Origin: Tubulanus polymorphus
Taxonomy: Eukaryota > Animalia > Nemertea
Direction of reading: 5' to 3'
DNA: 64,000 nt
Assembly: GCF_964204645.1 (NCBI RefSeq)
Contig: NC_134028.1
Location: 24,610,345 to 24,674,344, forward strand
Shown here: in pieces, positions 2,121 through 51,100 of the stretch
How the letters are laid out: every line of letters starts with the position of its first letter
Numbering within the stretch: position 1 is the stretch's first letter
Notes under the pieces: generated by a model
Database searches by the model: none
Told to the model about the DNA's origin: nothing
Seen by the model: only the letters and a program-made list of their open reading frames with translations
Translations under genes and position numbers: made by a program

Positions 2121-2666
2121 ATGAATATTTCTACGACGACGACGCAAAACATGACATCGACGACAACGGTCACTGTTTATCCTACGTCATTCTATAACCC
2201 ACGAGGAGCGGCGATCTTCACTGTTTCTGTCATCACCGTCTACGCCTTTTCGATCATTGCGATGTTGACTTTCTCCCTGTTGAGCAGAGGGAATAAAGAT
2301 AAGCGGTATAATCACGAACTCGACTGCGAAGTCGACCTCTATTTCCGAGATTTAAAGATGGAAAAAGATCGTTGGATTCGAGCCCAACGGAGCGCTCAAA
2401 AATGGAAAATATTGCGCCAAGTGAGCAGTGCGTCTGCGACGGGCGACGTGGAATCAGGAGAATTCGGATATAGAAACTCGGCTTTTGAAGAAGAAGGAGA
2501 GCGCCAACAACACCGCGAATACGTGGTGGTTTTTGAAAAAGCGACGACAAACAGCGACGATGTCGTCGAAACCGATAACCGTTCACACAAAACTGAAGTT
2601 CTAGTTCATACACAGAAGACAGCGACGTTTGATACTGAAATAATGACAGAAACGACGCATCTTTGA
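2121..2666 (+). CDS. Small single-pass membrane protein (181 aa), KCNE/MinK-like topology; single coding exon
   Basis: ATG at 2121 follows a pyrimidine tract + AG (ttttttaag|ATG). Thr-rich N-terminus with N-glycosylation sequons (NIS, NMT), no signal peptide, one hydrophobic helix (AAIFTVSVITVYAFSIIAMLTFSLL), then a basic juxtamembrane segment and D-x-x-V-x-x-Y. Confidence 0.75.
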   Translation: MNISTTTTQNMTSTTTVTVYPTSFYNPRGAAIFTVSVITVYAFSIIAMLTFSLLSRGNKDKRYNHELDCEVDLYFRDLKMEKDRWIRAQRSAQKWKILRQVSSASATGDVESGEFGYRNSAFEEEGERQQHREYVVVFEKATTNSDDVVETDNRSHKTEVLVHTQKTATFDTEIMTETTHL

Positions 2667-3910: not shown

Positions 3911-3969
3911 AACAAACCGCTACATCGGGGAAACAAACCGCTACATCGGGGAAACAAACCGCTACATCG
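3911..3969. repeat. 21-bp tandem repeat, ~3 copies
   Basis: Unit aacaaaccgctacatcgggga is directly visible. Confidence 0.9.
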
Positions 3970-5531: not shown

Positions 5532-6335
5532 TCAACAAGAACAAAAACATTCGGCAATAACCGGATAGGGAACTTTGAGCCATTTGCAGCGAACTTCGCG
5601 AGGATGGTCTTCGTTATCTCCGTCACGTAGACGCCGTTTCGAGTAGATATTCCTGAACCCTCTGACCCTCGAACGGCGACGGGGCAGCGACAATCGACAA
5701 TGCCATCTGAGAATGTAAACCGTATGGCTATCAACCGGGATACATCGCATACCGGCCGGCCATGAACACGGGGTACCGTTGTCGCATTCGCCCTTTTTCA
5801 CCCATCGTGGCCAGTACAACTCGCCTACGTCGTGCCATCTGAAATGTACCGGGCACGATGCTTTGCGGATGAGCCAATCCTTGAATACGTTTACCAACTG
5901 CGGTTGCGGTTGAAACGTCGATCCTGTCGGGTCTTGGAAGGTAAAATTCAGATCGCGCAGAGCTTGTCGTAGCATGGGATCGGTTTTGTAGGCGATGCCG
6001 CTGTTTTGTTTGAATTCGAGAACGTTCGGTCGATCTATCGACATCCATTCCGCGTTATAATCCTCGCCCAAAACTCGTAGCAAACGTTTTTCGCGTAAAT
6101 TTCGTTTCTTCGGTTTAAAACGATGGAAATCGATGACCGGTTCTAGATCGCGACTGCGCGATCGACGACCGCCGCCGCTTTTCATTTTTTTATCCGGTAC
6201 CAGAACATGAGGAAGCGGCCCTGCGATGTTATTCCCCGGTTTCGGTGGCGGCGGTGGAGGAGGTTCCGCGAGAACGTCCAACCACCAAATACAAACGATA
6301 CAAAATAAAACTGGTAAAACCTTATCCAAAGCCAT
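5532..6335 (-). CDS. nog: Noggin-like secreted cystine-knot protein (267 aa), intronless
   Basis: Signal peptide; LREKRLLRVLGEDYNAEWMS; CPVHFRWHDVGELYWPRWVKKGEC; CSWPAGMRC; LRWHC; CKWLKVPYPVIAECFCSC. All nine noggin cysteines are present. Confidence 0.95.
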   Translation of the reverse strand: MALDKVLPVLFCIVCIWWLDVLAEPPPPPPPKPGNNIAGPLPHVLVPDKKMKSGGGRRSRSRDLEPVIDFHRFKPKKRNLREKRLLRVLGEDYNAEWMSIDRPNVLEFKQNSGIAYKTDPMLRQALRDLNFTFQDPTGSTFQPQPQLVNVFKDWLIRKASCPVHFRWHDVGELYWPRWVKKGECDNGTPCSWPAGMRCIPVDSHTVYILRWHCRLSLPRRRSRVRGFRNIYSKRRLRDGDNEDHPREVRCKWLKVPYPVIAECFCSC

Positions 6336-9300
6336 GATTGAGACACAAGTTTTACGTCGACATCAGGATGGAGATAGTATCCCTCGTGTAATACGCTTTA
6401 TACGCGTTAAAAACTAAATGAAACACGGCTCGAAAATCAGAGCGCTCCGAACAACAACTGCTGGTGTTTAGTAAATGGTGCGCCAACTGTGTGAACAATC
6501 TTCCTCAAACTACCAACCGCAGACGCGTTTCTGATCTGCGCATCAAACTGTTTGCGCATATACTAATGTACACGCACACACGTTTACCCTGGTCCGATTT
6601 ACTTCCGAGTCAACATTCTTTGAATGGCAGAACATTTGAGAATCTGCTTACTCCTTATAGCCTATAAACAAATATATATACGATTCACATTTGCGGAGAA
6701 ATATCCGGTTTTTATGTAAACGCGATGTGAAATGAGATTTTTTTTCGATAATTTTTGAATTGACGGCCCACTATCGATTCGTCTCTACGTATAAATGTAT
6801 GCACAATGTATTAGAGGAAAGGAATCTAATGGGATATATACACTTCGATACCGGAAACCTTAAGGAGCTGATAACCTCAAGCGCAGGCCACTGCTATAAA
6901 ATGTTCCAAATCGCTATTCATGTCAAGTAGTATGCAAATCGATGATTCATTGGAAGGTTGATCAATCATTTAATGCAGATTTTAAATGTTTCCATAAAAT
7001 GTCAAAATTAATTGAGTGGGTTACATTTTTGGAAATATCCACGTTAGAATGAGTGCTGGGCCACTGTTATCAATCTGATTTATTCTTTTACACCAAAACT
7101 CGGTATTTGGTATTTGACGGTTTATTGCACCTGGAGGAGTCATTCTCTTGATAGAAATGAGGGATAAACTGCGCGGCGATGTTGGCGCCGGTACAAAAAT
7201 GATTTTGAGGAGAATTTGTCATCGAATCCACAACAAACCACTCGACGGAAATCGAGGGCACTTGAGGCTATTTGTCGAACCGCGAACAAACCTTCTAAAT
7301 TCCGGGTAAAAGTTACGCCACTGTAAATATACCGTTAAATAAGTGTCGGGTCGGGTTACAGGAATAATATTAACCGAAAGGATGAGAGATAAAATGGAGA
7401 CACCGACTGGGAAGAAGTCACGTACGATTTCAAAGTGGGACTGATTGAAGACTGAATGGAGACGCACTCTAAGCTTCATGAAGCTGACATTCCAGTTGCA
7501 AAACATCTTCAGTTACCTTTCGAAGGCGTTCTTGTAACTCTACAATCTTACATCAAAACCAAAAGATTTCATTGGTGGTAGAGAATTTTAAAAATTTGAT
7601 CGACTTGAAAAGTTTAGAGAGGGATCAACATTTATTCACCACACTGATTTGGAGTAAAACAGAGTATATTATATATAGATTGGAACTTTCGTATTCAGGA
7701 GCTATCTCCTCAATTTATTTTTTGAATCATATCTCTTTGCGAATCACCGGTAAACTCGGTCCGACAGTGAAGTGTTTTCTAAACACGAATTCGACATACA
7801 TTCGATAGTAAATCAAATAAAACGGAATGATTTTATATCAGTGACCCCCGATGATGGTATGTATACGTGCAGCTAGTGGTAAAGACAAGCGACATGCAAT
7901 ACGTGATTTTCAACAAGTTTGCCTATTATTTGAAGACAAATGATTCAAATGACTGATGTATTGCCGGTAATCGAGGAATTGATAAAACACGAATTAGACC
8001 CTTGGTATCTCGTTCTATTTGCATAAAGTAAAAACTAATTTTTGTTCTATTTGATTTGATGTTATCGACAGAACTTTCGTAGACAAGCATTTTGTTGATA
8101 GTTCGTCGAGACTCCATTCACTCCACGCGTGAGGAGAGTTTATGTTTGTTTTTTTAAAAGGCATATTTTTTTGTGTCAACGGTAAAACGATCCGCGTAAT
8201 AATGGAACATTGCCGTCGATCTGACTGAAATCAAACATGATCTAAAGGCGGAACTCAGCGGTGGCGATCATTTTTTTCTTTAATTTCCATCGTCGAAATG
8301 ATTTCTGATCGCAGCACGAGATCGGGAAAGCAATTATCAGCGACAGGAACAAGCGACGAGTCGAAATTCCAGGGGGTACCGGTGATATTTACAATTCTAC
8401 CGCGCATAACATCATTCTATATCCATCTTCATGCAGTAAAAAAAAAACACGTGTATTAAGAGCAAAGAAATAGATTAAATCTGGCAATAACACCTGGTTC
8501 TGGGTACGCAGTATGGGTTGTTCCGACCGGCTCCGAATTACATGTTTGACTATACCCCGAGTTTCAGTGTGTGTGTGATCTATGTGAGAGTACAAACAGC
8601 CAGTGAACAAGTTACAAACACGAGCTAACAAAAACTGCGGTAAACATTCGCGGTTTAAGCTTTCAACTTTTCTCGCCCTCAACGTGCTAATCACGTCAAA
8701 CCAGGTGTAAATGTGAGGTTTATATTTTTCGCTTTTTTGATCATCCATGAAGAAAAATTGCAGTGGGTACCGAACTATTACTCTAAACGCGTGGAGAACC
8801 TTTTCCGAGATCAAGCGGACAGACAACCTGGCTAGGGGTTTAACTGGAGTTTTGGTTGAATATGACACAAGGTGAATTAGTTCATTTTGAATGAATGACA
8901 GTCAAATCTGTTACGTTTTTGCGGTAGAAATGTTTATGTTGTTATAGTGAATAGATATCATTTGACAACCAGTTATCCCCCCCTGACTGGTCACCAAAGC
9001 TAAATGGTCACGCTACATCTTATGGCCAGGCCCGTAGCCAAGCCATGTCTTACTTGGGTGGGTGATTGTCATGAAAGTGGAACTATTTGTAAGGTATACC
9101 CACACGCTTATGTCGGGTCCTGAGAATACTCGTGCACAGAATTTCTGAAAATGCATGCAAAGAGAAGTAATATCACAACTTCTAGAATATTTGGGGTGAA
9201 AATAATGCTTCTTTTCCTTATAATTTGGCCTCAAACCAAGTTAGTTTGGAAGTATGTGCGTATCTTGAGCGAAAACGAATGAAAAAGTGAACTACTAATG

Positions 9301-19600: not shown

Positions 19601-21488
19601 ACACTACAAACACTGAATCTCTGAGGGGATCTTGCTGTGGATTGATACTTCATGAAGCCAATATCAACTATATGTAATTCAAAATTTTGAAATTTGAACT
19701 TATATCAAAATCTGGCCCCAGCTGCGTGAAAAATAATGTTTTACTCACCAAACTGGAAATGAACCATCTGGCTTTTTGCCCAGTATATCGTCACGTAAAA
19801 CCTCGTAGAAGGCCATCCGACATCCCGTATATACTGAAACAACAAAACAACAATGTGTTACCACTCACCGAGAAAAACATGATTTTCATTCACAAACTTG
19901 TACAGATTTTTGACGCTGTATAAATTGTTTTTTTCACACATTGGTAACTGGGGTAGCTTGTGAGATTGGATGTGCGCAAAGTCATCGATATTGGTGCCTT
20001 TCGAAATAACAGTAACAATTGTGAATTATTTTTGCATTTTTTTGTCTGCAATTCAATTTCATGACACGTATATATTTTCTATCTAATAAATTTCATATAT
20101 TTTTAAAACTGAGGGCGGAACTACACAGAACCCCAATAGAGGCCTTCCACTTGGCTGCTGGCTGGACCCCGCCCTTCCAATTTTCTTAAATCCACCCCTG
20201 TTAAGCTATTAGGATATAGTCGAAACGTTGAATAAACTACTAGCTTCTACTACTGTTTTTTCGATATTATTGTGGGATTCTCTCTATCTAAGCGATATGT
20301 AAATTTTCAAGTCGTCAATAGTTCGTTTTCTGGTTACCTATGTGTCTGTATATTGCTGGAGTAACACCTTGCCATAATCTAAGCGTTCCTTCTTCCCGAA
20401 CTGAAAAAAAGGTTGGAAAACAAAAGTTCATCACATGTCGTAGGGCGTACGTGATGTACTCAATAATCACTGATAAAATAATGTTTCTTTTCGAAATGAA
20501 ATCGAAAAACGACGTAAAAAGACTCGAATGTCAGATGTCGTTGATATTGCCACATCTTGTCACGGTACGGTCTGATCTTATCTCTCGTTGATAGGACTGT
20601 GATAAGAGGTCAATGACGTAAGTTTTGTGACAAATGTCAGACAAAACAACGAAGAAGTCTGATGGAAATTTTTCTACCTATTCCGAGTGCGGTATCTACC
20701 ATGCCCCGATGAGGCCCGTTCGGTCTGATCTTATCTCTCGTTGATAGGACTGTGATAAGAGGTCAATGACATAAGTTTTGTGACAAATGTCAGACAAAAC
20801 AACGAAGAAGTCTGATGGAAATTTTTTTACCTATTCCGAGTGCAGTATCTACCATGCCCCGATGAGGCCCGTGTTGTTTCGCGTATAATTCTCCCTGGAC
20901 CTGCAGACGTGTTTTAGTCAAATCCAGAGGATACGTTACTGAAATATCGAATAGCATGAAATTATCGAAAATGATCAAAACGGGCATTCCGGTTTAAAAA
21001 ATAGTTAAATAAATGACAGATCGAATAGGATGGATAGATTCCTGATTTAAGAAAACATAAAATAAAATTTAAAAAGTGCAATAAGGCTATATTATAAGAA
21101 AAAATAAAACGATTAAAAAAAACAAAAACCACCTTAAAACTTAGATCAATAATGGAGAGCCCTAATTTCGAGTTTGAATGGCTGCTTTACCTGTTTACAG
21201 CGAATGTCATTTTAATTTCAGCCCTTTGAATTGATAGTTAGGCCCTATTCAAAATAAGGAAACCCTTACACCAACTATTAATTAATACCCTTATATCAGA
21301 ATGTCATTTGACATAGCAGCAGCAGAGATGAGATGAACCAAGTTTCTGAATGAAAGTTCATGCTTACCAGTCTCTGATACGGTTGCTGCTACACATGACA
21401 GCGCGTATTTTAAAGTGAATGCCCTCACTCGATCCTGTCTGGATACAGTAGCCGGTTTTCTGGGCTGTGACGATACGCTTAGAGCCAT
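13626..21488 (-). CDS. SLC25A27: Mitochondrial uncoupling protein 4 (SLC25 carrier); exons 21368-21488, 20831-20938, 20338-20400, 19749-19833, 19303-19425, 18609-18721, 17724-17808, 17487-17576, 16512-16614, 13626-13697
   Basis: Three carrier motifs ([33 protein letters not shown]) plus UCP4-typical [43 protein letters not shown] and [17 protein letters not shown]. Phases are consistent through to TAG. Confidence 0.95.
14830..14886 (-). mobile_element. tRNA-like SINE head fragment (second copy at ~48015-48092, +)
   Basis: Both copies share tctagtgtggcagggttt...catcaggttc(g/a)aatccctgcc with a Pol III B-box-like GGTTCRAATCC. Neither folds into a canonical cloverleaf. Confidence 0.55.
20568..20872. 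repeat. 153-bp tandem duplication spanning the UCP4 exon 2 3' end and the start of intron 2
   Basis: 20568-20719 and 20721-20872 are near-identical. Confidence 0.95.
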
Positions 21489-27688: not shown

Positions 27689-27854
27689 AGGGGGTCATTC
27701 ATTTATTACGTACGCATTAAGGGAGGGGGAGGGGGTCAGTGCAATTGCGTACTGTAATGCCTAATGTATATGAAAAAATGGCCCATTTTGCGTATAGAGG
27801 GGGAGGGGGGAGTTGAAAATTTCAAATTTTATGCGAACGTAAAAAATGATCCCT
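27689..27854. mobile_element. PIF/Harbinger-like MITE in the zinc-finger 3' flank
   Basis: Left end aggggg tcattcatttattacgtacgc and degenerate right end gcgaacgtaaaaaatgatccct, with internal G-tracts. Confidence 0.55.
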
Positions 27855-28685
27855 AGATATGATTTTATGTTAAATCTACAAGCAATTATCTAACGTAGGT
27901 TAAATGTTGACTATTAAAGTTTTTTTTAATGTCTAATCAAGTTTTTGAGTCAAAAGAATATTCATGTATATTCAAATCATGATTAAGTATTTTAGTGGGT
28001 GCATATTTTAATAATCCCATATGATGAAACGTTTGGTATTGAATAAATTTAGACAGGCTTTAAAGACTTAAGATTAAATTTTAATCTAATTTTTTTGGTC
28101 GATCATGATCTCGGGTGAGGAAGAGTCCATTGCTGAAGTAAGGAGTCCTTAAGTCACATATTGGGTTAGATTTGTATCGATGGTCCGACAGACGTGCGCC
28201 CCACAAGACTCGCTGCGATGCAATCTGTGCGTGTACTGTATATGAAAAGCGTGCCTCATGTGGTGGCCTAGTTAAAAGTTTTCCAGGAAACTGCATCCGA
28301 TTCAACTGCCAGGGTTTGTAAATGATTCACGGACCGGCCGTGAAAAGCAGTGAATTTAATAGAAGGGCAGTGAAATGGGGGTGTTATTAAAACTACACAC
28401 TACTAAAACTAAGACCTATGCACTTAGAGGTGTAAGAACTATGCTTGACTAAAACGAAGTCCGATGAGCTATTGCACTCATTAGAAATCATCACTAGGGG
28501 TGCCATCTATCTGTGTATTCAACCACCTCTGCTAATAAGTGTAAGCAATACCAGATATAAACAAATGCATGTGAAACGTAAATTGGTCGGTTTTCTCTGG
28601 TGCATATAGTCATTTTATTTAGTAGTGCTTCGTTATACAAATAGTATCACTTGTTGCTTAACGAATGACAAATTTTAAAATCATA

Positions 28686-30292
28686 TTTATTCTCATACAA
28701 CAATTATACAAAATGCCAGGATTGCTCGAGGCAACGTAAGCTCCTCAAACACGTGGACTTTCAAAAAACAACTAGTCCAACCACCATAGGCGTATAAACT
28801 ATAAATGAATGTTTATACGCCCCTTGGTCCAAACATAGACTCTAAAACAAAAAAGTCTATGGCACAACCATGGACTCAATTGTCCATGGCCCCCGCACTA
28901 AAACCAGAGATAAACCTGGCCAAATACTCTGGAAAGCGTAGGATTAATCACTCTGATTTACATTCTTTACATCATTTTATTTTCACATATCAAATTATTA
29001 ACTTTAAGCTTATTTTCTCAAATTTTAATAGCAATTTTATTTCTATTACTATGTATGAAATTGTACTAACTTTAAAATCACAAAAGTTACATGCAAGGTA
29101 TTTATAAGTCTTTATATATGATACATTTCCACAACAGCCGATTCATACAATTTGCATCAATGGGAATATAACAAAAATACACAAAGAGTTGTAAACTTTG
29201 ATCCATAAAACACCGAAAAAAGGACTAGTCTGAAAGTCTAAGATTATGAATTGTCTAGATTATGAATTTGACAATTCATGAGGTCAATATAACCGACACT
29301 TTGTTATATTTCATAAAATATGAATCTACCATCATCAACTTTTCAAATGACATTGAGATTGAGGACATCTTAATTAACATTAAACCTACAAATTCACTCA
29401 CTCTGGAAAGCGTAAGGTTAACTAATTAATCTTAATTATTACAAGGAAACTAAAAACATTGCCAAATTTTCCTCGTCTTTAAGAGATTTCTTCAAACATT
29501 ATATTATCAACTACTTTTTCACAAATTTTACATTTGAAACAAAGCAGGGTCTGATTTAAGCACTAGTCCGAAGTATATTTTCATTAGGGCATGAAGGTTA
29601 TCATAATCACTCATCCACCGGGCTTGTGTAATTCTGTCTCAAAGCTTTTATCCCACTCGATGCAAGGGATTATTGTGTCACAATCGCACTATTCATGTAG
29701 AGCAAGTTGATTTTTGAGGGGGCAAGTGATATTACATATATGCTTGCCCCAAGGTCAAGTGGCATTTATTCCTCAGATCAAACCCTGCAAACTATTATAA
29801 AGGTTTTTCTTCGTGATAATTTAAGATAAATCAAGTATTTTCAAATAAATATGGTTTGATTGACGAAGCTGCGCTAACTTCTTAATTGTTTTATTCAACT
29901 TGATAGTAGATATAAATACAACTCTATATAAAGATCAGAAATTCTTCTTGTCCAGATATTACAGGCCCCGCACAGACGCGGTTAAACTGATAATCAAAAC
30001 AAAGCTAGGACAATTATTCTATGCTCTCGCTATTTTCGACAGGGCCTTGAATAGATCAGTATTTTATGAACCACTGAAAAGCACCAAAGTGAAATTTTTG
30101 CTATAGAACTTAACAACTGAAAAGTTTTAACATGAATGATGAAAATGTACATCGTTTTATTCACGCAACAATAATATCTTAACCGAGGAATCGTCATGCA
30201 AGTTCCTAATTTACAAACACGCGGACTGTGTTACAATAACAATCTCCAACATAAAAGCATTAAAACTAAGAGATGAGAAACTCAGATTCACT
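28686..30292 (-). ncRNA. Array of four structured non-coding modules (28686-28928, ~28976-29402, 29890-30116, 30156-30292), each a 3' splice site + stem-loops + AATAAA
   Basis: Acceptor context GATTAAT...TTCCAG|AGT is repeated in three modules (TTTTCAG in the fourth). Multiple perfect hairpins, closing stems and terminal AATAAA; no ORF. Confidence 0.45.
29545..29787. mobile_element. hAT-like MITE (CAGGG...CCCTG termini)
   Basis: cagggtctgattt / agatcaaaccctg termini; internal ggggcaag...cttgcccc inverted repeat. TSD not recognisable. Confidence 0.55.
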
Positions 30293-30604
30293 CTGGAACT
30301 CTTAGTATCAATTAATCATTACTTTCACTAGAAAACTAGAATTTTGCTTACTTTGCCTTGTCTTAAAGATTTCCAAACACCTTGACATTACATACTAAGT
30401 ATTCTGACGTTTTTCCTGGCAGCTTCATCATAACTATACAATCGGTAACTAATCAATAACGTCGATAACTTAAGTATATAGCTGTTTTAAATTCTTTCTA
30501 AAAAGTAAAATGTATGTACCAGATTTTAGATAGCGAGTCTTACCCATGTATAACAATAAACAGTCACAGCAGTGATTGAGCGCGGCTAGTTGAAAGGACG
30601 GGTC

Positions 30605-30752
30605 GATCTTTCATCACAGTTATTCAAAGCATTCTATCATATCAGATATCTTTTTAAATGTTTTTTCGATTTAGTAAAGGTTTATGGTTATTTGTTTTGT
30701 TCATTACAATAACTGAGTTGATAGAATGCTTTGAATAACAACAGAAAAGATC
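30605..30752. repeat. Inverted repeat / probable MITE
   Basis: Perfect 21-bp arms gttattcaaagcattctatca (30619-30639) and tgatagaatgctttgaataac (30719-30739), extended imperfectly to gatcttt/aaagatc. Confidence 0.8.
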
Positions 30753-32459
30753 TCGGGTTTTCGCTATACTTAGGGAAGGTTGTTCGATAGATGAAGAACC
30801 TTGTTGATAAATATTTGAAAAAATGCCTTTTCATGTAAATAGAATATTAATTTGTTTTTTGTTTGTATTGTTGTTTATTCTATTTATTATTTATTGGTTT
30901 TTTTTAGAATTAATTTATGTACTTGTAGTTTGTAGTTATTTATCATTCATACTTCTCTATTTACAACTGCAGGCATTTTTTCACTGTAAAGTTCTGGGCC
31001 CATTTTAAGAAAGCACTACTGATTCACTGCCACTCCTTAATAATCATTATACACCCGATTGGAAGCTAAATGATTATTCACGAGAGCCATCTCGTGATAT
31101 GGATTTACCCATTACAATAAAAGAAGTTCAAACAGCTATAAACAATGTTAAAACGTTAAAAATTAGTCTTAGCTATAACTTTATGCCTAGTTATTCCTAG
31201 ATTTACCTCTCGAATGTAAATAATGGTCTCCTTTCAGATAAAGGTTAAGTTTTCAAGTACGTAGATATGATCATCAGATTGATGAAGGTTTAAATCGAAA
31301 TCTACGATTCGTTTCAAATTTTTCAAATTGGTTACCTTCGAAAATATCAATGCCATCAAATTTGTACATCTACTATTCAGCAAATAGTTAATATTTGTAC
31401 GTCAACACTGGTCTAATGTTATGTTCTATGTTTCCTAACTATGTGATATCTACACGGACAAATAGCCACAGTTGACTATGTTTAACTATGGTAAGTTGAA
31501 AGATTAAACTCACAATTCATATTGAAACTATATCTCAGTTTAGGAGTTAACTCAACAAGACCTACGAGTCAAAACTAGGCACTCAACACGACCATTTACC
31601 CCTAGTGACTAACTTAACTTGACTTATCTATCAACCATGGATCGAAGACCAATATCTTGAATTAATGGAGCTTAGCTTTTATTAGACTCTCACATTGCAT
31701 AAACATTATCAAATAGTTTCCTTGAAAACACTATATTATCCATCAGACTGGTTTGAAAAAGGTGATAAGCAAAAAAATCAATACTTTACTACAGAAGTCT
31801 GCTATTGTCTTCGCCGCTCCTGGATTTCAGTGTTTATAACATGCACTATTATCTATGCTGCTCCTAATAAGATACACTATAGTCTTTGCTTCTTTTAAAG
31901 CAGTGTTTATTCTGAATCGGTGTTTATGAGATTCCATTAGCTTTGTCGCTTGAATCAGTGGTTTATAAGATTCACTATTGTCTCTGCTGCTCCTGATATT
32001 TAATGTTTTATAGAAATAAACCACCGATTGTAGAAGAATCCATCATTGAGTGATTAATCCGTTGCTGGATCCTCAACTTTTCATCTGGGCTTCTGCAGTT
32101 TTCATCAGCAAATGGGTCGATCAGTATTCATCTACTTGTGAGTGTCTTCTTCAGGCCAATTTTTCCGAGATGTAGTTTGGCTGAAACAAAGTGAAGAAAG
32201 CAAAACATTTCAGACAGATTTATCATAATTTACGTGTCATTTCAAATTACAAGCCACCCTGTTTTTCACAAAGTAAAATTCATTGACGTCAATTGCTGAT
32301 TTAAACCCCAATAATTAATTGCAGTAGTAGGACTAGTTCATCACTGTTTAAGACTAGTGAAGATAAAAGTTCAGCAATGTGGACCGGTAAATAGACTTTG
32401 ATGATAGCCACTTATTAAATGATATTCATATGAGGACTGAAATTTCTATATACAGGTAA

Positions 32460-33420
32460 TTTCATGTATATCAACTTACCTTTAAAGATTGCTGGGTTCA
32501 GTTCTGGTCTTTTCTGTGCACCGTTCCAGTTTGTAGATTTTGGATTGGTTGATGCAATTGGTTGATGCATTTGATTCAAGCTTGGATTGTTCAGTGGGCT
32601 GAGCTTATCTGTAGATATTTGATGAGTCATTGATTTAAAGCTGGGCAGTTTCATATAGATAGGATTTAGCTGAAATGAGCAAACAAAGATATGCTGTAAT
32701 GACAAAATATTTCATTTAGAATTTATCGAAATAATTCCATGTATATCCAGTTACCTTTTATGCTTGGGTCGTTATCGGCGATTATCTTATTAGTTTGTTA
32801 GTTAGTTGGCCTCATCTGTGCACTGTTCCAGTTGGTCGATTTGGACAAGTAGTTGATCTCAAGCTGGGTTTTTTCTTATAGTTGAAATTCAGCTGCAATG
32901 ATTAAAAGAAGATATCCTGTAATGACAAAATATTTCATTTAGAATTTATCGAAATAATTCCATGTATATCAAGTTACCTTTTATGATTGCTTGGTTATCG
33001 GCGATTATCCTTTTAGTTAGTTAGTTAGTTAGTTGGCCTCATCTATTCGCTGTTCCAGTTGGTCGTTTTTGGACGAGTAGTTGATCTCAAACTGGGTTTT
33101 TCTCATAGTTGAAATTTAGCTGCAATGATTAAAAGAAGATATCCCGTAATGACAAAATTTTTCATTTAGAATTTATCGAAATAATTTCATGTATATCAAG
33201 TTACCTTTAATGATTGCTTGGTTCGTAATCGGCGTGGATCATCTTAAGTTTGTTTGTTGATAAGTTGGATTCTTGTTGGCCTCATCTGTGCGCTGTTACA
33301 GTTGGTCGATTTTTGACGAGTAGTTGATCTCAAACTGGGTTTTTCTCATAGTTGAAATTTAGCTGCAATGATTAAAAGAAGATATCCCGTAATGACAAAA
33401 TATTTCATTTAGAATTTATA
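32460..33420. repeat. Tandem exon+intron duplication, ~225-245-bp unit, 4 copies (fifth related end at ~33880-33975)
   Basis: Repeated gtaatgacaaaatatttcatttagaatttatcgaaataattccatgtatatc.agttacctt and gctgcaatgattaaaagaagatatcc blocks. Confidence 0.95.
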
Positions 33421-34565
33421 ATAATTTCCATAAATAATATACCTAGAATAGCCTACTCGGTTATATTCGTAACACCGAACAAATTATAAGCGAACATACG
33501 ATTCCTAGAAGAGTTTCCATCCGATTGAACTTTTATATATTTCAATTCCAAGTATGCAAATTCACATGTATGAAAACGTGCCATTACTTAGTGCTAAAAA
33601 GCAGGGTTTTTACGTGTTTTTCAAGAATAAGTCCCCTAAAAATAACTTGATCACTATGAAATTTTTGTGGGCTCGAGAATTCATTATAAGCCAAACCATG
33701 ACACCAAAAATCAACACTATTGGTTCAACAGCCAATGTTTATGCCTTGTTGACACACCGGTACTCTATTCATTTAAAATGAAAACTGCTTCTCCAGCCCA
33801 TTTGCATAGGCAAACCTACAGTTCGCCAAAAATCAACTTACATTTCAAGTTTGCTGGGTTCAGTTTATCAAATATCAAATTACCTTTTATGATGGCTGGG
33901 TTCATTATCGGAGGATCTCCTTAGTTGGTTGGTTGAGTTTCATCCAAATTGGCCCCTTCTGTGCACTGTTCTGATGAGCTCTCGTTTGACTTTTTGAGTT
34001 GGTGTCCCTTACGATCGTGACACACCTGCCAGGAGCGAAACAGGCAGGAATCGAAGTACAGATATAGTTGTGTGATCGTCGGTCGATTTTTCATCATTTT
34101 TTTCGACAATTTTACAATATTTGGTCTTTTTTTCATACAAGTAGTCCGAAAGTTTACAAGGTTAATAATTTTGTCTAATTTATACATTTCTTTGGTCTTT
34201 TTTTTCATGTAGTCCGAAAGTTTACAAGGATGAAGATAATTTTGTCTAATATTTTTTTCGAAATCAAAGTACAGATATAGTTGCGTGATCGTCAGTCGAT
34301 TTTACATCATTTTTTTCGGAATCGAAGTACTTCTTTGTCTTCTTGGGTTTCGTCGAAGCTGAAATTGAGTAAAAGAAAAACATTTTGTAGTCACACATTT
34401 CTACATCATTAATCCTAATTTATATGTGAATCAACTTAACTTTCAAGATTGCGGAGTTCACTATTCTTTTTTCGGCATCTTCTGTAGTCGCTTTCTACCA
34501 TCGTCTTCTTCAACTTCTTGGGAGTCCTGAAATGAAAAAAAGAGAAGAGCGATGAAAACCTGGTA

Positions 34566-34800
34566 CGGAACAAAACAATGTTCGAAAGCTTTTCAGCTCT
34601 CCGTTGCCGGTCACATGCCGAGAACACCAGACAATGAGCCAGCCAGGAATATACTGCCCTCTACACGCCCTCACACAGAACGCGAAAACCAGAATGACAA
34701 CGCCTCACATTCCCCATCTAACCGCAAGGTGTACTGGGCGACGTCAGTAACTGACAAACCTGTAAGATTGCACGAAACACAAATAGCGCAGTACAACCAG
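34566..34800 (+). mobile_element. Degenerate LINE 3'-end fragment (RTE/L2-like ORF2 C-terminus)
   Basis: Translates in part to QLSVAGHMPRTPDNEPAR, resembling the post-RT R-x-L-x-[WF]-x-GH-x-x-R motif. Inverted partner at 35110-35341. Confidence 0.6.
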
Positions 34801-34828
34801 CTTGACCGGGTTGAGATTCAGGATCTCA

Positions 34829-35105
34829 ACTAGCACTCAAAAGCGTGACAAGAGACTTCATCCACTGACCGAGGTTGTCACAAGGACACAATGAAACTAG
34901 CACTCACAAGCCGACAAGAGACTTCATCCACTGACCGGGGTTGTCACAAGGACACAATGAAAACTAGCACTCAAACTAGAAATCAAAGAGCGTGACAGTA
35001 GAATCATCCCTCAGTCGACTCAGAATACCAGAAACAAAGAGCGTGACAGTAGAATCATCCCTCATCCGGGCGGTCACAATGACACAATGAATGCTAGTAG
35101 CGTGA
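34829..35105. repeat. Short tandem repeats (~67-bp and ~52-bp units) between the two LINE fragments
   Basis: actagcactca...gacaagagacttcatccactgaccg.ggttgtcacaaggacacaatgaa x2; caaagagcgtgacagtagaatcatccctca x2. Confidence 0.85.
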
Positions 35106-35109
35106 CAAT

Positions 35110-35341
35110 CCAGTATAACCACTCCATTTGTATCCCGCGCAATCCCACAGATATGCCCGTCATTGACATCACTCAGCACACTTTGTAGATAGGTGGAGGC
35201 AATGAGGCCTCGTCATCCTGTTATTCTTGTTCCATATGAGAGCGTGTAGAGGGCAGAATTTCCTGACCGACTCTTTGTCTGACATCCTCGACACGTGACC
35301 GGCGAAGGAGAGCTGACGCTTTCGGACATTAGTTTTGTTCC
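35110..35341 (-). mobile_element. Degenerate LINE 3'-end fragment, inverted relative to 34566-34800
   Basis: Translates to VRKRQLSFAGHVSRMSDKESVRK and aligns colinearly with the + copy. Confidence 0.65.
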
Positions 35342-35811
35342 AGCAAACGTTAAAATTCGACAGAGAAATCGGCCCTGAAAAATAAAACGGTTTAATTGCT
35401 GAAAAATAGAACGGATTAATAAACACGGAACAGTACAGGACAGCACGGAGACGAACAGTAACACATAAAACATAAAGACGTCGTTCCTCAGGAAGCAGGA
35501 ACAGGAGCGGGAGCGCAGCGAAAATCGCCAGGAGGAGAATCCACGGTAGCATGTTCACAGTGTGAGTGTGCAGAGGTGAATGGCCTATGCTTGTGTACAC
35601 CGTAGTCAGCCGGTGACGTATTCAATGGCGCGTATGATTATGAATGATATCAACAACTCTGAAAAGCCGCAATTGTGTCTCTATTGTTGAATGGATTATT
35701 GAGAGCTTATAGAAGTTGAATGAAAAGGTTCTACTGCCCGGTTGAATACACGCCAGTAGCCAGCTGAACAATATCGTGGAACTTTAATAAGGCCATAAAA
35801 ATAAATTTCTA

Positions 35812-36155
35812 ACCATGGATATAGTTAATCTTAAGTTACTATAAAACAATAATTTTGAAGCGAGACCTCACACGGCAGCTCGCGCCATTTTGCAGAGCTT
35901 CTCTGGACCTGTGGTGACAGGTCTGCATTATTAAACTGATGAAATGAAGGAAAACTTTAATTTTTTTGGTCTCATTATAGTAATGAGTATAACATCAATT
36001 GCTTACCATAGATAGATTAAATCTTAAGTTACTATAAAACAATAATTTTGAAGCGAGACCTCAGCTCACACGGCGGCTCGCGCCATTTTGCAGAATTTCT
36101 CGCGACCTGTGGTGACAGGTCTGCATTAAAACTGATATAAATAGAAAAAAAACTT
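35812..36155. promoter_or_regulatory. Tandemly duplicated ~145-bp element containing a YY1-like motif, in the divergent lncRNA/ACSM interval
   Basis: 35812-35957 and 36005-36155 are near-identical. Each has cgccatttt (AAAATGGCG on -) and the palindromic gacctgtggtgacaggtc. Confidence 0.45.
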
Positions 36156-37279
36156 CTTGCTTTAAATTTTGCTTTAAATTGATGAGTTGATTTAAAATCA
36201 GTCTCAATAAAATCAGTCTCTATATTGCATTCGGCTCCTTTATACATGTACATCATAAAAACAATGAATATAAATACACTGATACTGATACTGATAAATA
36301 GTGAGACTTCAGGACAGTGAGGAGTGATGCCGGCGAACTGTGGATAGTGAGCAGATATTTTTCAGTGTCTTATTGCGGAAACGAAATATCAAGACCTCGA
36401 TTCAGCTATCGAAAATTTTCCCTTACTTCTACATTAATTAAGTCATCTATGCCTGAAACTTATTTTTTTCCTTTAATACAGAAATAACTCATTTTACACA
36501 TAAATATTTTCTTCTTATAAATCAACCTTTCAAATGAATTATTAGTCAGAACATTTTCTTTATCGTTATTGTTGAATCATTTTCGATATTTACGACGGAT
36601 CAGAATATTCATTCAACTCAAAATGTTCTTCCATTCGTCTAGCACATGCCTAGATATTTCGCCGTTTCGTGAAATATTGTTGTGAGTTTGGGTTTTTCGG
36701 GACCTGACATGACAGGTAAGACCTGTGTAGACAGACATCATTCGCAAATTCTGAACGATGCTGACGCTCGAAGCTAGGTTATTTCCGGGTTCCTGAATGT
36801 GATTTATGGGTTTGTGAAGTTTTTCTCCGGCTGGTAGAACGAATATCCAGGGGCTGAGTGGTTTAATGTGTTCGTGAAGCAACATAATCTAAGGTCTACC
36901 GGCTCACTTCTGAAAAGTAGGAGTGTCAACTGCTGATTGATTGATGACTCGACATTTCTTCTTCTCGACTTTTCCGTTTACTAACTAGTTTAGGAGAGAG
37001 TAATTAAATGAGCCTTCTAATTGGAGTAATTCTTCTTCATTTGTTGACTTCTAATTTAAGCCTCCTGACCTGTGTCGTGTATTTACCTGTTTTTCGGATA
37101 TTGTGCTTATATGATATTCAAGTCCAAGACCTTTTCACGCAAAATATCCTTATAAGGACAGTTAACGGACAACTAAATGTACACTAAAGTTGTTGCCTAA
37201 AATGACCTAGAAATTGAGATAAAAAATCCATGTTCAAATTCAATTTACTGTCAACATTTTATCTTTCAATCTGATTCAG

Positions 37280-40200
37280 ATGTTTAGGGTATCAGTTATC
37301 ACATCATGGAGACATTCACGATTTCTGGGCGCGGTCTTACAGAAACTGAATGGTGCAAGTTCGCCATCACCTCCTCGTCCGGTCGTAGAGCACTACAGAT
37401 ATATCAGTTATCCACCGGGTAACTCGCTCATCGGTGTTAATGATTACGAGTATGAGAAAAAAACGTTCAAGATGCAAGTACCAGAGAAATTCAATTTTGC
37501 CCGAGATGTGATCGACAAGTTTGCTCAGGAGGTAAACTGACAAGTACTTTCTAACTAACGCTTAGTTGACCACACAGGGGCTCGTATTTGAAGTTTGGGG
37601 GCAAACTGTAGCTTAGATCATAAAGTATTCCTGCTACTTTCTTTTTATATATATAGTACCAGGGATATTGGATGATCTAAGCTACAGTTCACCCCCCAAA
37701 CTTCAAATACGAGCCCCTGTGGTTGACCAGTTTATATTTTCAGTCTTGAAGTGGATATTTTGCAAATGTATCATTCTTGTAAATGCTATTCTATTTGAAA
37801 AATTTGGACTCATTGTGGGCTAGTGCAGCGTTTGAACCCACTACCTAACTGTGGCCTAGTGCGACATTCTACCCCTTGACAATCGGTTTTAGCTGCTATC
37901 ATTAGTTTAAACTGCTTACAGCCCTCAATCTAATTATAGCATTTACTAGAGTAATGTCATGTCGGCAAAATATCCACTTCCATAGTTATACATGTACATA
38001 TATGGATGAATGAAACATTTTGCAGTCGAATGCGGCCGAGCGAAATGAAACAGCCCTGTGGTGGATCAATGATCAGGGCAGAGAAGTTAAATGGTCATTC
38101 AGCGAACTTTCGACCAAGTCAAAAAAGTGAGTAGCCCTACCCTGGCCTGATTGGTAGATTTCATTTAGTTTCTTGCCATCGAATGAGATAAATTAGTCTA
38201 ATATTGAGCCGTCATTTCCAAACAAGGGCAACCTGTTCGAAGAAGGTGGACCTGACATTGGAAAGGGCACTTGAAAAGGGCAGAGTTGGCAATGGATGGC
38301 CCTCCCACAGACAATTTAGGACAAACAGGGGGTTTTCTGACCCTTAACGGAGACCATTGAGAATTATTTTTCTTTTTCTTCGAATCATCTTTGCAAAAGA
38401 AAAGTTTTTCCAGACCTTTTGGAGGACACATTCGAATTTTGAAGGGCCTGGTCGACCCCTAAATCCACCCTTGGTGCATTGTCCGGTGTTCAGGCTAAAT
38501 TAATCGAGGATTTAATGAATATGTTCTAGGGTTGCTAATATTCTTGAGACGAGCTGCGGATTGAAAGAAGGTGATGTTATTCTCGTTTTACTGGGTAGAA
38601 ATCCTGAATGGTGGTTGTTCAGTTTAGCGTCATTGCGTTGTGGAATAGTGATGTCACCCGGTACTATGTTACTCACTAGTCATGACATTAATTATCGGTT
38701 GAAAATGTCTAAGGCTAAATGTATAATCACCGATGAGAGTCTGGCTGATAGTGTCGATAAAGTGAGTCCATTTCATTCAACTCTGTTCAACTTCATTCAA
38801 CTCAAATATATGGATAGATAAAAGTGAACAAAGAATGAGGTTCATTAAATTTGTCCGAGCTGCTGCCAACTGTTCCTGATGTTCAGTATTTGTCACTATT
38901 TCATTACGAAAAATACAGATTTCATTTGTTCAATGCGTACATATGAAAGATGTTACCGATGGTCTTGCTGTTGATTACTGATTGAATTTCATATTTCAAT
39001 GAAATGCTCCTGAGAAAAATTCAATTTGTTACTGATAGCCCTTTTCGGAGGTTGGCAGCCGTGTTATGTAATGGTAGAGTTTGTCAAATTTTTTTCTTTT
39101 TCTGCAGGCTTGTGTAGGATGTCCTGACCTCAAACTCAAACTTCTCGTGTCGGAAAAATCCAGGTAATGAAATAGCTGTCAGAACTCTTATCAAATATGA
39201 GTTCTGTTAGTTTCGAAGTATTTTTGCATGATTTCTCTAGACTAAAAAGTTCATCATAGAAAAATTTCTGGTGAATTCTTCCATCCACTCCTCAGTCTCT
39301 GCGAATTTTACGTTTTATGATATTGTTGCGATTTTTAGGTCTGGTTGGTTGAACTATTACAACCTGTTTGATGAAGTTTCTGAACATCATGATGTACGTA
39401 GATTTATTTCTATAATTGTGTCAAGATTTACAGTAAATATACAATAGAAAGACTACGCCTAAATCTGTACTGCTGGGACCAGGATTTGTTGCCCAATTAA
39501 GAGGTTACAGAATTTGAAAGGATAGGAATTTGCTTACCACTAAATTAATAGTCTGGAGATTTGGTGTCTACTGTAATTGGGAAATGAAAGTGATGCAGAC
39601 ACTTCATCAAATTTGAAATTTTCTCCTTTAAAACACCTTGAAAACTCCTCATACCCAGGAATGACTGATATCTGTAGGGATCCTGTTCAAATGACAACTT
39701 AAACTTAGTATATTGAACTGGAAAAACATGTACACAAATTGTGACTCAAAGATAGTTTTTGACTTAGCCAAGTTTGACAGTATATATTCTATTCTAGTGT
39801 CTCGATACAAAGTCATCGGATCCATCAATATTGTATTTTACAAGTGGAACGACTGGTGCTCCGAAGATGGCTCAACACACGCATGCTAGTTTAGGAATTG
39901 GACACCAGGCGACAGCTAGGTATAGAGAATCTTGTAGAAAATTCAGTGCTACCTTCGTATGACACACGTGTGTTGGTATGACATCCTGAGTGTTTTTGGC
40001 CCGTCACTTCACACGGGTGCCAAAGGGCCTGTATCCATTTTGCCAAATTTGGCCCAACCGAAAAAACGTCAGACCAGGCCTGAGCCAAATCTTATGATGG
40101 GTCAAATTATTGTGTGACTGTAAATTGCAACTGGTGACTCATTTTGCTCTGTTTGAGCATTGTTTAGTGCCGAGTGAGGGGTTTACATGTGAGCGCACGG

Positions 40201-48100: not shown

Positions 48101-51100
48101 AACGTATTCCGTCGATAAAACATTTGTGACGATATTTTTCTTCTTTTTTTTTTTGATCTGCAGGTCGAATCGTTCACGTTGGATCAGGACGATTTAGAAG
48201 ATGTCGAACCTCGGTTGGACACGTCACGATTCCTGTTGTCGTCGGATACAATGGAAAACAATGAGCTACGCGGAGTTGATCCGGAAACACAGGCGCGATT
48301 AGAGGCGTTATTGGAAGCCGCCGGTAAGAGAGGTCCACGAACCCTGTATCCGTACTAAAACCCCGATTAGGGCCAGTAATCTACAGTTAGTCCGTACTGG
48401 AACGGACCAATTCAATCTATCACACACATTTTTGAAATCAGGTTTTATCACCGGTTCTGGTTAGACGCAACAATCTCTTTAAAGCCTAGCGCACATCGAC
48501 ACAGCGATTGGAGACAACTAGTTGCAACCGAACGATTACCCCGCGCACATCGAAATCTAGTTACAACCGGTCAGTTGCAGCAACTGCATGGCGCGTGTCA
48601 ATCGTCAAGATCCAGAGCGCGCACATCGACGGATACGACTGCGATTACAACCAGTTGCTCAAAAGTAGAACATGGGCAACTGGCTGGAACTGGAGATAGA
48701 TCGACGCTTACCAATTGTAAGCTCGCTCACATCGACACATTCAAGCAACTGATCGTATCCAGCCAGTTCCTCGCATGCGCCGAAAACTGCCTTGCAACTA
48801 GTTGTCTCCAATCGCAGTGTCGATGTGCGCTAGGCTTAAAAGGCGATCGGAGCAAAGTTTCGGTCCACACAATAGACAAAATGGTCCGTTCTAAAATTTA
48901 GAATGTACCTTGATCAGTATTTTTGGTTGGTCTTACTCTAACTTGGTCTGTTTTTCAAATGGAATGGACCAAACATAGTTTCATCGAGTGTATGATGTGT
49001 GTATTTTGAATGTATATGTTATGTTAATGTTGTTACACTCATCGCCCTCCGGTTTCTCTCTCTTCGTTGTTATTGTATTATAAACATGACCGCCCCTGAG
49101 AACGAATATTTACAAGCGAAATTGAATGTGAATTTTTTTTGCAACTAATTGAAACCAAAAACAGTTGGAACCGTTGAGTGTTTAACTAAATTCATCCCCC
49201 ATTGAGTGTTTAACTAAATTCATCCCCCATTGAGTGTTTAACTAAATTCATCCCCCATTGAGTGTTTAACTAAATTCATCCCCCATTGAGTGTTTAACTA
49301 AATTCATCCCCCATTGAGTGTTTAACTAAATTCATCCCCCATTGAGTGTTTAACTAAATTCATCCCCCATTGAGTGTTTAACTAAATTCATCCCCCATTG
49401 AGTGTTTAACTAAATTCATCCCCCATTGAGTGTTTAACTAAATTCATCCCCCATTGAGTGTTTAACTCAATTCATCCCCCATTGAGTGTTTAACTCAATT
49501 CATCCCCCATTGAGTGTTTAACTCAATTCATCCCCCATTGAGTTTTTAACTCATTTCATCCTCAACTAATATCAAAATTCATCCCCAATAATTCAGGAAT
49601 ATTTGTTGAGATTGCTAGATCACTTGTAATATCAAACAGTTTCCATCTATGTTTCGCATATTTGACTTTGTTGATTCAAGTCAGAGAAAACTATGTGCAT
49701 GTCAGGGAAAAGTCAGCAAGTCGAATGTAAGTGGCCCCCCTGATAAAGCCAGCCCCTAAATCTATATTCTTCATATATCATCTGATCGCCGGATCGGGAG
49801 TTTGTGGTAACGGTGTGATCACAGAAATCACTGGCGATTCATAAAAGGAGTTTTTTCTACGAGGACGGACTGAATTTGATGTGATTATTTCATACTGTTT
49901 CGAGGCAGTGTACAGTGTACACAGTGATCACGAATCTACCACGTCAGTCACAGTCACATCTGTCCAACCTTTATACAGTATAACATTTCACATTCGCACT
50001 CCATACATAATATGTAAAAATGTGAATAAATCTAAAATGACGACGAATTTATTAGTTTTCATATTTCGACGCTGAATACATTCGAAACCCTGACTACGAC
50101 TACTATTGATTTGTAGTTTCTACTGTTAGTATTAATGGTATTGATACAGGTATTTCATTAGGTTTCGCTATAACCACTAGAAATGTAATTACTCCAGAGT
50201 TTATCAAAATACTCTCAAAATCAGAATTATTTCTAGTTCATTTACAATTTCTATTTATGAACCCTTGAAAAAATGAATAGAGATCATAGGTAGCCCGGTC
50301 TGCATATTAGAAAGCCGATTAGATGATCGAAATTCAATTTCAAAAGTCGGCAGGTCCTGACATTTCAATATTAAGACTGCTGAGATTTGTTTGTCTGATG
50401 ATGTAGGAGTCTGATGAAAGTTCTATATTAAGCTATTAAGCTATTGCGTGTTCAGTCGCGGAATCAGCTGTTGTTGTATGTGGTGACCTTTCTCTGTCGC
50501 ATCCATTCTAATGTGCACCACGCGTACATATTATATCCATTTATGTACGCGGTGGACACTCACTGTGATGTATACCGGGGTGACTAAGCTCTGATTATAC
50601 ACTACTACCGGTATCTGTAGAAGTATTGATCGGAGATCTGACCATACATTGTAATATTAACTGAATTAATAGGTTTTCATTCATTCAAATGATTTAATAG
50701 TACTGGTGTTGTACTTTGAATACTTACATTAAGGTAGCGCAGGGATGGTTTCATCAGACTTGCTCAATAAAATATTGTGGTAGCAATGTAGTTATAATTG
50801 TCACTGTGTCCGTAATTACTGGGGCCAGTAGCACAGTCATGGCTTAGACCTAAGACCTGCCTTAGACCATCTTAGTTCTACTCTACCACAAAAACTTAAC
50901 TAGTACTAGTAAAACTGAAGTTCCACTTTAACCAGGTTGACGTACCGGTTTCAAAAGCATATATCACCTTTCATCCTAAAGAACGTCTTTAGCCATCAGT
51001 GTCGTTTTGATTATGATTTCAATGTTGTTTTGTTTGTTGTTTCAGGTATCGGTAAGCTATCTACGGCTGATGGTAAAGCACTAGCGGATCCTGAGGTATT

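What the first reader, a model, noticed from the sequence alone, without database searches (positions are those of the whole stretch)
28686..30292. Array of four structured non-coding modules, each bracketed by a 3' splice site and a poly(A) signal
Seen on the minus strand: modules start at 30292, 30116, 29402 and 28928 after acceptors (three share GATTAAT...TTCCAG|AGT). AATAAA signals lie at 30156-30161, 29890-29895, 28976-28981 and 28686-28691; two are only ~40-47 nt upstream of the next acceptor. Three modules keep short anchors (GTTT(T)A[AG]TG near the 5' end, AGTCC...GTGTTT near the 3' end). Their closing stems differ in sequence yet still pair (GCCAGG/CCUGGC; CUGAG/CUCGG; UUGUAGG/UUUACAA), and the fourth has AGGCCCUG/CGGGGCCU. 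Upstream minus-strand donors exist (~30544, ~31207, ~31336). Inference: a cassette of alternative structured last exons of the adjacent lncRNA, or an operon-like cluster of ncRNAs. I recognise no known RNA family.
Basis: partly seen in the sequence, partly recalled or inferred. Interest (0 to 1): 0.8.

Follow-up and report, generated by a model that had tools for sequence, protein, structure and literature searches.

The report
Duplicated last exons inside a Helitron
The four modules sit inside a many-copy stretch of animal DNA that has the ends of a rolling-circle jumping gene (Helitron); three are diverged copies of one likely last exon of a predicted non-coding transcript and only one folds better than chance, so this is likely transposon cargo rather than a new RNA family.

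Summary
The motifs are real; the setting and the shared fold are not as proposed. M1, M3 and M4 are homologous units (acceptor, body, poly(A) block); M2 is not demonstrably related. Only M4 folds better than shuffles (z -7.8; M1-M3 -1.3 to +0.8), and no common fold was found. Genomic contigs show that the array lies in a multi-copy element about 8 kb long: depth about 30 in single-copy DNA, hundreds to thousands from 28222 on. On the + strand its ends are Helitron-like: A|TC at 28223|28224, and an 18-nt palindrome, 10-12 nt, CTGA|T at 35939 and 36135. There is no target duplication, terminal repeat or RepHel. Antisense to it runs a gene-like, non-coding layout: duplicated first exons, duplicated middle exons of frame-breaking lengths, then the acceptor/AATAAA units. 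Other copies appear to drop or swap units. Best reading: alternative last exons made by tandem duplication inside non-autonomous Helitron cargo; splicing and poly(A) use are untested. M4's helices survive the listed variants among copies, which leaves room for a selected RNA structure. The scan's notes held no look-alike. Interest 0.3.

The parts
28224..36135 (+). Multi-copy, non-autonomous Helitron-like element that contains the whole finding
   Evidence: X1 depth about 30 in single-copy contigs (27854-28251, 36697-37578, 37699-38891, 38862-39145) against bin depths of 1400-5700 over 28184-32791 and 7000-27500 over 32792-36247; termini; no RepHel or other Pfam family above cut-off in 112 of 112 open stretches of 33 aa or more
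28223..28225 (+). Left end: A then TC
   Evidence: sequence; contigs of X1, X2 and X3 begin at 28222 and the single-copy X1 contig stops at 28251, one base further out than A|TC predicts
35906..35939 (+). Inner Helitron-type 3' end: 18-nt palindrome, 12 nt, CTGA then T
   Evidence: most laid contigs lack 2 nt at 35931, where depth is 28138, partly from the twin copy
36104..36135 (+). Outer Helitron-type 3' end: same palindrome, 10 nt, CTGA then T
   Evidence: 0.25 such sites expected per shuffled window, both strands, 40 shuffles; 4 found in the window; hairpin z -3.35
35814..36133 (-). Two tandem predicted first exons (36133-36007 and 35937-35814), each starting at the element's terminal letters, with AAAATGGCG (YY1-like, name recalled) and ending ATG|GT
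   Evidence: use as promoter or exon inferred
32480..34526 (-). Six predicted middle exons with related 3' ends and donors (34526-, 34358-33884, 33362-33205, 33119-32978, 32892-32755, 32669-32480); the last four are 158, 142, 138 and 190 nt long, so no shared frame
   Evidence: lengths computed from those coordinates
30474..31143 (.). Large inverted-repeat domain upstream of the modules (arms of 24, 21, 28 and 31 nt) enclosing the donors at 31109 and 30544
   Evidence: z -7.4 on minus and -7.8 on plus, 20 shuffles each: strand not resolved
30156..30317 (-). M1: branch-like GATTAAT, acceptor before 30292, body, AATAAA 30161-30156
   Evidence: homologous to M4 and M3 (0 of 200 shuffles each); fold not significant
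29890..30124 (-). M2: two tandem TTTTCAG acceptor-like sites (before 30116 and 30073), 8-bp stem, AATAAA 29895-29890; not shown to be homologous to the other units
29544..29788 (-).
   Evidence: z -1.8; 101 and 23 of 200 shuffles as good; pair probabilities 0.79-1.0
28976..29431 (-). M3: homologous acceptor before 29402, weakly folded body, AATAAA at 29041 and 28981
28686..28949 (-). M4: homologous acceptor before 28928, five strong hairpins (28890-28867, 28861-28834, 28822-28788, 28779-28754, 28751-28723), AATAAA 28691-28686; the only module that folds beyond chance
   Evidence: z -7.8 minus, -8.1 plus; mean pair probability 0.91-1.0

Best explanation
The modules lie in a many-copy element with Helitron-type ends and no transposase gene, and three of them (M1, M3, M4) are diverged tandem copies of one unit that likely serves as the last exon of a predicted spliced, non-coding transcript running antisense to the element. 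Shown: homology of the three units, splice and poly(A) signals ordered like a gene on the minus strand only, multi-copy depth, the terminal motifs, strong folding of M4 alone. Inferred: a RepHel protein from an autonomous partner copies the element by rolling circle. Transcription would start at the element's 3' terminus and read inwards. The last donor would pick one of the repeated acceptors, and the RNA would end at the next AATAAA, giving alternative 3' ends. The units likely multiply, drop out and swap by recombination at the repeated acceptors, as the first and middle exons also did. The hairpins are likely local inverted repeats of the element, not one fold shared by all modules.
For: Depth step from about 30 to hundreds or thousands, with contigs of 3 of 4 runs starting at 28222, and 770 of 1528 X1 contigs only 90-95% alike. 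X1 behaves as DNA: unbroken contigs cross host exons and introns at depth 30-33. A|TC at the left end; palindrome + 10-12 nt + CTGA|T twice at the right, beside the highest listed site depth outside the tandem repeats. No target duplication, no terminal inverted repeat above a 10-bp match, no RepHel. These match the Helitron definition in PMC13286980, PMC6544945 and PMC4224331 (passages); read-through past a first 3' end is shown for Helraiser (PMC4778049, passages). Unit homology: acceptors 0-2 of 500 shuffles; whole units 0 of 200, and poly(A) blocks M1-M3b, M1-M4, M3b-M4 matched by 0, 2 and 0 of 111 other AATAAA sites. The 3' halves of M1 and M4 align with no internal gap over 79 columns. 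Strand-specific signal layout. Joints in other copies skip M3 (28917 to 29398), M2's AATAAA (29802 to 29938, 4 of 4 runs) or M1's acceptor (30255 to 30313), or join an M3-like start to M1/M2 sequence.
Against: The left break is at 28222, one base outside A|TC, and ATC occurs at 1.9% of positions. Depth stays high past 36135 (bins 1619 and 847 up to about 36730), so the right limit is not fixed; a related palindrome lies at 36701. No empty site, full second copy or autonomous partner could be examined, as no genome is held. Two more hairpin+CTRR|T sites occur in the window (34797, 25293), so the right end might belong to a separate element. Contig depth is not a copy number, and many joints have unknown letters between their sides or short sides (tool caveats). 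M4's variants look structure-preserving, and splice and poly(A) blocks are better kept than M3's body, which pure drift explains less well.
Confidence: 0.62

Rival explanations
1. The element encodes a selected antisense non-coding RNA whose alternative last exons, M4 above all, are functional RNA structures (for export, stability, localisation or control of the element).
For: M4: 0 of 5 listed variants break a pair of probability above 0.5; 3 lie in loops and 2 extend a helix. Two contigs lack one whole hairpin while the neighbouring hairpin stays paired with a shorter loop (table 5c). 10 of 60 confident pairs are G-U on minus against 1 of 55 on plus. Signals are kept across diverged units.
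Against: No shared fold; M1-M3 fold like shuffles. M4's z-score is equal on both strands and its DNA folding energies are nearly equal. G-U excess follows strand composition: it is on plus for unit X and the large domain. In the large domain 4 of 13 listed substitutions break pairs. Only the 40 best-supported of 378 and 366 variant rows were visible. Whole-hairpin loss and palindrome perfection can also arise by slippage or template switching (established knowledge, recalled).
Confidence: 0.18
2. It is a dispersed multigene family or segmental duplication of a host lncRNA gene (or cargo of another transposon class); the Helitron-type right end belongs to a neighbouring element.
For: Depth differs along the stretch, so it is a composite. 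The right limit is blurred and the left TC is one base off the break.
Against: The left boundary is sharp and the same in 3 runs. The palindrome-CTGA unit is duplicated together with the predicted first exon. Depth that is highest near a shared 3' end fits Helitron families with varied interiors (PMC4224331, passages).
Confidence: 0.12
3. An operon-like cluster of separate small RNAs, released by polyadenylation and spliced-leader trans-splicing.
For: AATAAA lies 39 and 47 nt before the M2 and M4 acceptors and 105 nt before unit X.
Against: M1 and M3 have no AATAAA within 581 and 362 nt upstream. Cis donors are plentiful upstream. Close packing follows from tandem duplication of acceptor-to-AATAAA units. 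One paper search for spliced leaders with nemerteans listed only a chaetognath paper (listing only).
Confidence: 0.04
4. The signals are chance motifs in AT-rich DNA, multiplied by duplication, and are never used.
For: Motifs were picked after the fact; duplicated units are not independent; 7 AATAAA lie in the region, not one per module.
Against: Donor, acceptor and AATAAA enrichment is confined to one strand and ordered like a gene; acceptor and poly(A) blocks are the best-kept parts of the units.
Confidence: 0.04

Closest known systems
Non-autonomous Helitrons with captured or chimeric exons, e.g. bat HelibatN3 and relatives (PMC4224331, PMC4778049; passages read) and wheat Xuan1 (PMC13286980; passages read)
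   Same: 5' TC, 3' palindrome plus CTRR, A|T junction, no target duplication, no transposase; cargo with promoter-like sequence, splice sites and poly(A) signals; more than one 3' end.
   Different: Here the cargo looks like a complete non-coding unit, antisense to the element, starting at its 3' terminus and built from duplicated first, middle and last exons. No host gene of origin was identified.
Helentron-associated HINE elements of oyster (PMC7492417; passages read)
   Same: Non-autonomous rolling-circle element of a lophotrochozoan with internal tandem repeats.
   Different: No subterminal inverted repeat pair linking the two ends was found, nor the 5' subTIR/IR/microsatellite module.
3' variable regions of Drosophila PGRP-LC, CG42235 and Pip (PMC6191721; abstract and outline read)
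   Same: Tandemly duplicated 3' cassettes that would be chosen alternatively.
   Different: Those are coding host genes steered by competing RNA pairings; here the units are non-coding and no docking site beat controls.
Splice-site-containing ('mirage') tandem repeats, noted by this scan in the same genome (e1-10291512; AI note, not checked)
   Same: Duplication of splice signals with their flanks as a by-product.
   Different: These units are strongly diverged, include poly(A) blocks and sit in a mobile element.

Membership tests
Helitron (canonical, non-autonomous) | 5' TC terminus | tested here: met
   TC at 28224-28225; contig break in 3 runs at 28222, one base outside the expected place
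Helitron (canonical, non-autonomous) | 3' CTRR terminus | tested here: met
   CTGA ending at 35939 and 36135; depth continues beyond, so a further end is possible
Helitron (canonical, non-autonomous) | 16-20-nt palindrome 10-15 nt from the 3' end | tested here: met
   18-nt palindrome 14 nt (outer) and 16 nt (inner) from the end; chance 0.25 per window; definition from PMC13286980
Helitron (canonical, non-autonomous) | No target-site duplication and no terminal inverted repeat | tested here: met
Helitron (canonical, non-autonomous) | Insertion between host A and T, shown by an empty site | tested here: inconclusive
   A precedes TC and T follows CTGA; no empty site could be sought
Helitron (canonical, non-autonomous) | Multiple copies | tested here: met
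   depth and divergence of laid contigs; dispersal over the genome not shown
Helitron (autonomous) | RepHel open reading frame | tested here: not met
   longest open stretch 150 aa; no Pfam family above cut-off in 112 stretches
Helitron (canonical, non-autonomous) | Autonomous partner with the same 30-nt ends; circles with joined ends | not testable with these tools
   no genome held
Helentron/HINE | 11-12-nt subterminal inverted repeats at both ends with a 5' IR | tested here: not met
   only scattered 12-13-mers with one mismatch, none within the first 45 nt of the left end; the TT-target feature is not excluded, since the minus strand ends in TT at the break
Any Rfam 15 family | Covariance-model match | tested here: not met
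   0 at gathering score in the window; 0 at E up to 10 in 28200-32400
3' variable region steered by competing RNA pairing | One docking site that pairs with selectors near each cassette | tested here: not met
   best shared duplex -16.4; 16 of 26 control regions did better
Hammerhead-containing elements | Catalytic core with three stems in or between the units | tested here: not met
   no core motif in 28600-30340; one core-like site at 33971 (+) lacks stems I and III on reading the sequence; motif recalled
Alternative last exons | Spliced, polyadenylated RNAs that use each acceptor and poly(A) site | not testable with these tools
   signals only
Spliced-leader operon | Leader joined at each downstream acceptor | not testable with these tools
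   spacing fits 2 of 4 modules

The most novel reading that the evidence does not exclude
A Helitron family carries its own non-coding gene: a promoter built into the 3' terminator fires inwards, and the spliced antisense RNA ends in one of several exchangeable last exons, of which M4 is a selected, undescribed RNA structure that controls the element's RNA or its silencing.
Probability: 0.15. Interest if true: 0.65.

Novelty: new member of a known kind. Interest (0 to 1): 0.3.

Why it matters
As best explained it is an ordinary kind of object, a non-autonomous rolling-circle element with exon-bearing cargo. It shows how exon duplication inside such an element can imitate a designed ncRNA cassette, and how an element could spread ready-made promoter, splice and poly(A) signals. 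If the antisense RNA is made and M4 is under selection, it would be a Helitron-encoded regulatory RNA. My nine answered paper searches (listings) showed no title describing one, but they were not exhaustive. The many genomic copies make the covariation test easy for anyone with the assembly.

Tried and rejected
RNA evidence: no RNA holder was listed. Run X6 (RNA only by guess) laid one contig by two 18-nt pieces and did not cover the neighbouring host exons either; no conclusion drawn. No CT..AC joints were among the 15 joints shown in each (of 38 and 83); X1 behaves as DNA and the kind of the other runs is not on record, so this says nothing on splicing. Other copies in collections: acceptor pattern 0 in viral contigs, 1 unrelated chance match in metagenomes, 0 in prokaryote genomes; first-exon pattern 0 in viral contigs. 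Coding potential: no Pfam family above cut-off in the element; no longer homologue for 33924-34301 (weak search); the single hit for exon 32669-32481 was an unnamed tandem-repeat ORF, P0006, with no tblastn match back to the window, rejected as an artefact. tRNA/tmRNA: none. Recalled motifs scanned: no U12 donor, telomerase template, CTE motif, B box or histone stem-loop in the element; no Sm-site pattern in the modules on the minus strand; four CPE-like words there, fewer than on plus. Terminal inverted repeats, target duplications, subTIRs: not found; no long direct repeat joins the two ends. Docking site: not above controls. Shared fold: not found. The TCAGT words at 36136 and 35940 are the reverse complement of the element's CTGA ends, so they are no independent evidence of a promoter. 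Look-alike searches in the scan's notes gave nothing. No supplements were read.

Full report
Setting. The window is animal DNA. It holds a noggin-like ORF whose best named relative is from the ribbon worm Lineus longissimus at 50% identity, a C2H2 zinc-finger gene and an ankyrin-repeat gene. Earlier notes of this scan call the genome a ribbon worm (unchecked beyond). No whole genome is held.

The observation. The listed motifs are at the stated places on the minus strand. The pattern GATTAAT...TTCCAGAGT occurs only at M1, M3 and M4. Their acceptor regions are alike beyond shuffles (0, 2 and 0 of 500), whole units align better than 200 of 200 shuffles, and their poly(A) blocks are more alike than nearly all of 111 other AATAAA sites. 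The 3' halves of M1 and M4 align without internal gaps, so the anchors are the best-kept pieces of a longer homology. M2 shares none of this. A further stem-closed unit, X (29788-29544), lies between M2 and M3 and is also not demonstrably homologous.

Structure. Only M4 folds beyond chance: z -7.8 on minus and -8.1 on plus; M1, M2 and M3 lie between -1.3 and +0.8 on minus. A 120-nt sliding scan of 72 windows flagged 5, two of them in M4 and none in M1-M3. The proposed closing stems have probabilities of 0.28 (M4), about 0.5 (M1), 0.00 (M3) and 0.67-0.98 (M2). Against shuffles only M4's is unusual (2%), and M3's arm prefers M1's partner. RNAalifold finds no common fold. Rfam gives nothing. A 670-nt inverted-repeat domain just upstream (31143-30474) folds as strongly as M4 on either strand.

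Copy number. Run X1 behaves as DNA: single contigs cross host exons and introns at depth 30-33. Its depth is about 30 at 27864-28191 and rises to hundreds or thousands from 28222, where contigs of X1, X2 and X3 all begin; 770 of 1528 laid X1 contigs are only 90-95% alike. Site depths in the modules (about 290-8700 in X1) point to tens of copies; depths near 35931 (28138, two places fit) point to hundreds. Depth is a rough guide only. The four runs come from at most three samples and two studies, and one may be the source of the assembly.

What the element is. On the plus strand the left end reads A|TC at 28223|28224. An 18-nt palindrome followed by 12 or 10 nt and CTGA|T ends at 35939 and again at 36135; shuffles give 0.25 such sites per window, the real window has 4. 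No target duplication, terminal inverted repeat or subterminal repeat pair was found, and none of 112 open stretches matches a Pfam family above cut-off. This fits the Helitron definition as read in passages of PMC13286980, PMC6544945 and PMC4224331; bypass of a 3' end is shown in PMC4778049. Against it: the break is one base outside A|TC, depth stays high to about 36730 where a related palindrome lies, and no empty site or partner could be examined.

The antisense unit. On the minus strand, two tandem 190-nt units begin at the element's terminal letters, contain AAAATGGCG and end ATG|GT. Six related middle exons follow; four of them are 158, 142, 138 and 190 nt long and differ by frame-breaking indels, so they are unlikely to code. 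Strong donors number 10 upstream of 30500 (2.2 expected, 0 of 200 shuffles) and 0 among the modules, where acceptor-like sites (9 vs 2.2) and AATAAA (7 vs 2.3) are enriched; the plus strand shows neither. Region and patterns were chosen after inspection, and duplicates are not independent. This is the layout of a spliced non-coding gene with repeated last exons. Its use in RNA is untested.

Variation among copies. Contig joints skip M3, M2's AATAAA or M1's acceptor, or join an M3-like start to M1 or M2 sequence; M4's acceptor is preceded by different sequence in some contigs (many joints have unknown letters between or sides under 30 nt). I classed 40 of 43 substitutions listed between 28396 and 31158, taken from the 40 rows shown of 378 and of 366. 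In M4 none of 4 substitutions and 1 deletion breaks a confident pair, and two extend helices. Two contigs lack one whole M4 hairpin and keep the next. In the large domain 4 of 13 break pairs, 2 restore pairs and 7 are unpaired. In M2 one breaks and one keeps; in M3 one breaks. M4 has 10 G-U pairs of 60 on minus and 1 of 55 on plus, but unit X and the large domain show the reverse, and DNA folding energies are equal between strands. This is a hint of constraint on M4, not proof.

Mechanism. Most likely (0.62) the element is copied in trans by a RepHel protein, and its cargo grew by tandem duplication of exon-sized units with their splice signals. If transcribed inwards from the 3' terminus, the last donor would choose among repeated acceptors and end at the next AATAAA. 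The hairpins are likely local inverted repeats. Rivals: a selected antisense RNA with functional last exons (0.18), a host lncRNA family or other element (0.12), a trans-spliced operon (0.04), unused chance motifs (0.04). No docking site for mutually exclusive choice, as in PMC6191721 (abstract and outline), beat controls.

Verdict. Observation partly confirmed, interpretation partly supported. New member of a known kind, interest 0.3. The boldest reading not excluded, a Helitron-encoded antisense RNA gene with a selected M4 structure, has probability 0.15 and would merit 0.65.

Noticed in passing
window 30474-31143: Inverted-repeat domain with arms of 24, 21, 28 and 31 nt and A-rich loops on the minus strand; folds with z about -7.5 on both strands; depth is like the rest of the element, so it is not a separate miniature element.
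   Followed up: partly
window 27700-27853: Very high-copy short repeat (X1 bin depth 85190) just past the zinc-finger gene; an 877-nt single-copy contig leaves the window sequence at 27854, which may be an allele without it.
   Followed up: no
window 34797 (-) and 25293 (-): Two more palindrome + CTRR|T sites; the first lies inside the element and may be the end of a nested element in the opposite direction.
   Followed up: no
window 34567-34784 and 35126-35341: Inverted pair, 74% alike over 219 nt; translations recall the C-terminal end of LINE reverse-transcriptase proteins (resemblance recalled; no Pfam match).
   Followed up: partly
window 36632-36726: Repetitive patch (depth 3770 at 36692) with a palindrome like the element's terminator and a plus-strand donor near 36716 that might serve the acyl-CoA-synthetase-like gene downstream (gene name from the translation, recalled).
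   Followed up: partly
window 28890-28834 (-): The first two hairpins of M4 look like duplicates whose stems differ by a paired change on both arms (G-C against A-U).
   Followed up: partly
window 5532-6362 (-): Single-exon noggin-like gene (PF05806), 50% identical to a Lineus longissimus protein.
   Followed up: partly
window 49174-49561 and 20568-20872: A 28-bp minisatellite (13.9 copies, 99% matches) and a 153-bp tandem duplication.
   Followed up: no
window 2085-2666 (+): 193-aa open stretch with a T-rich start and one hydrophobic segment, no Pfam family.
   Followed up: no
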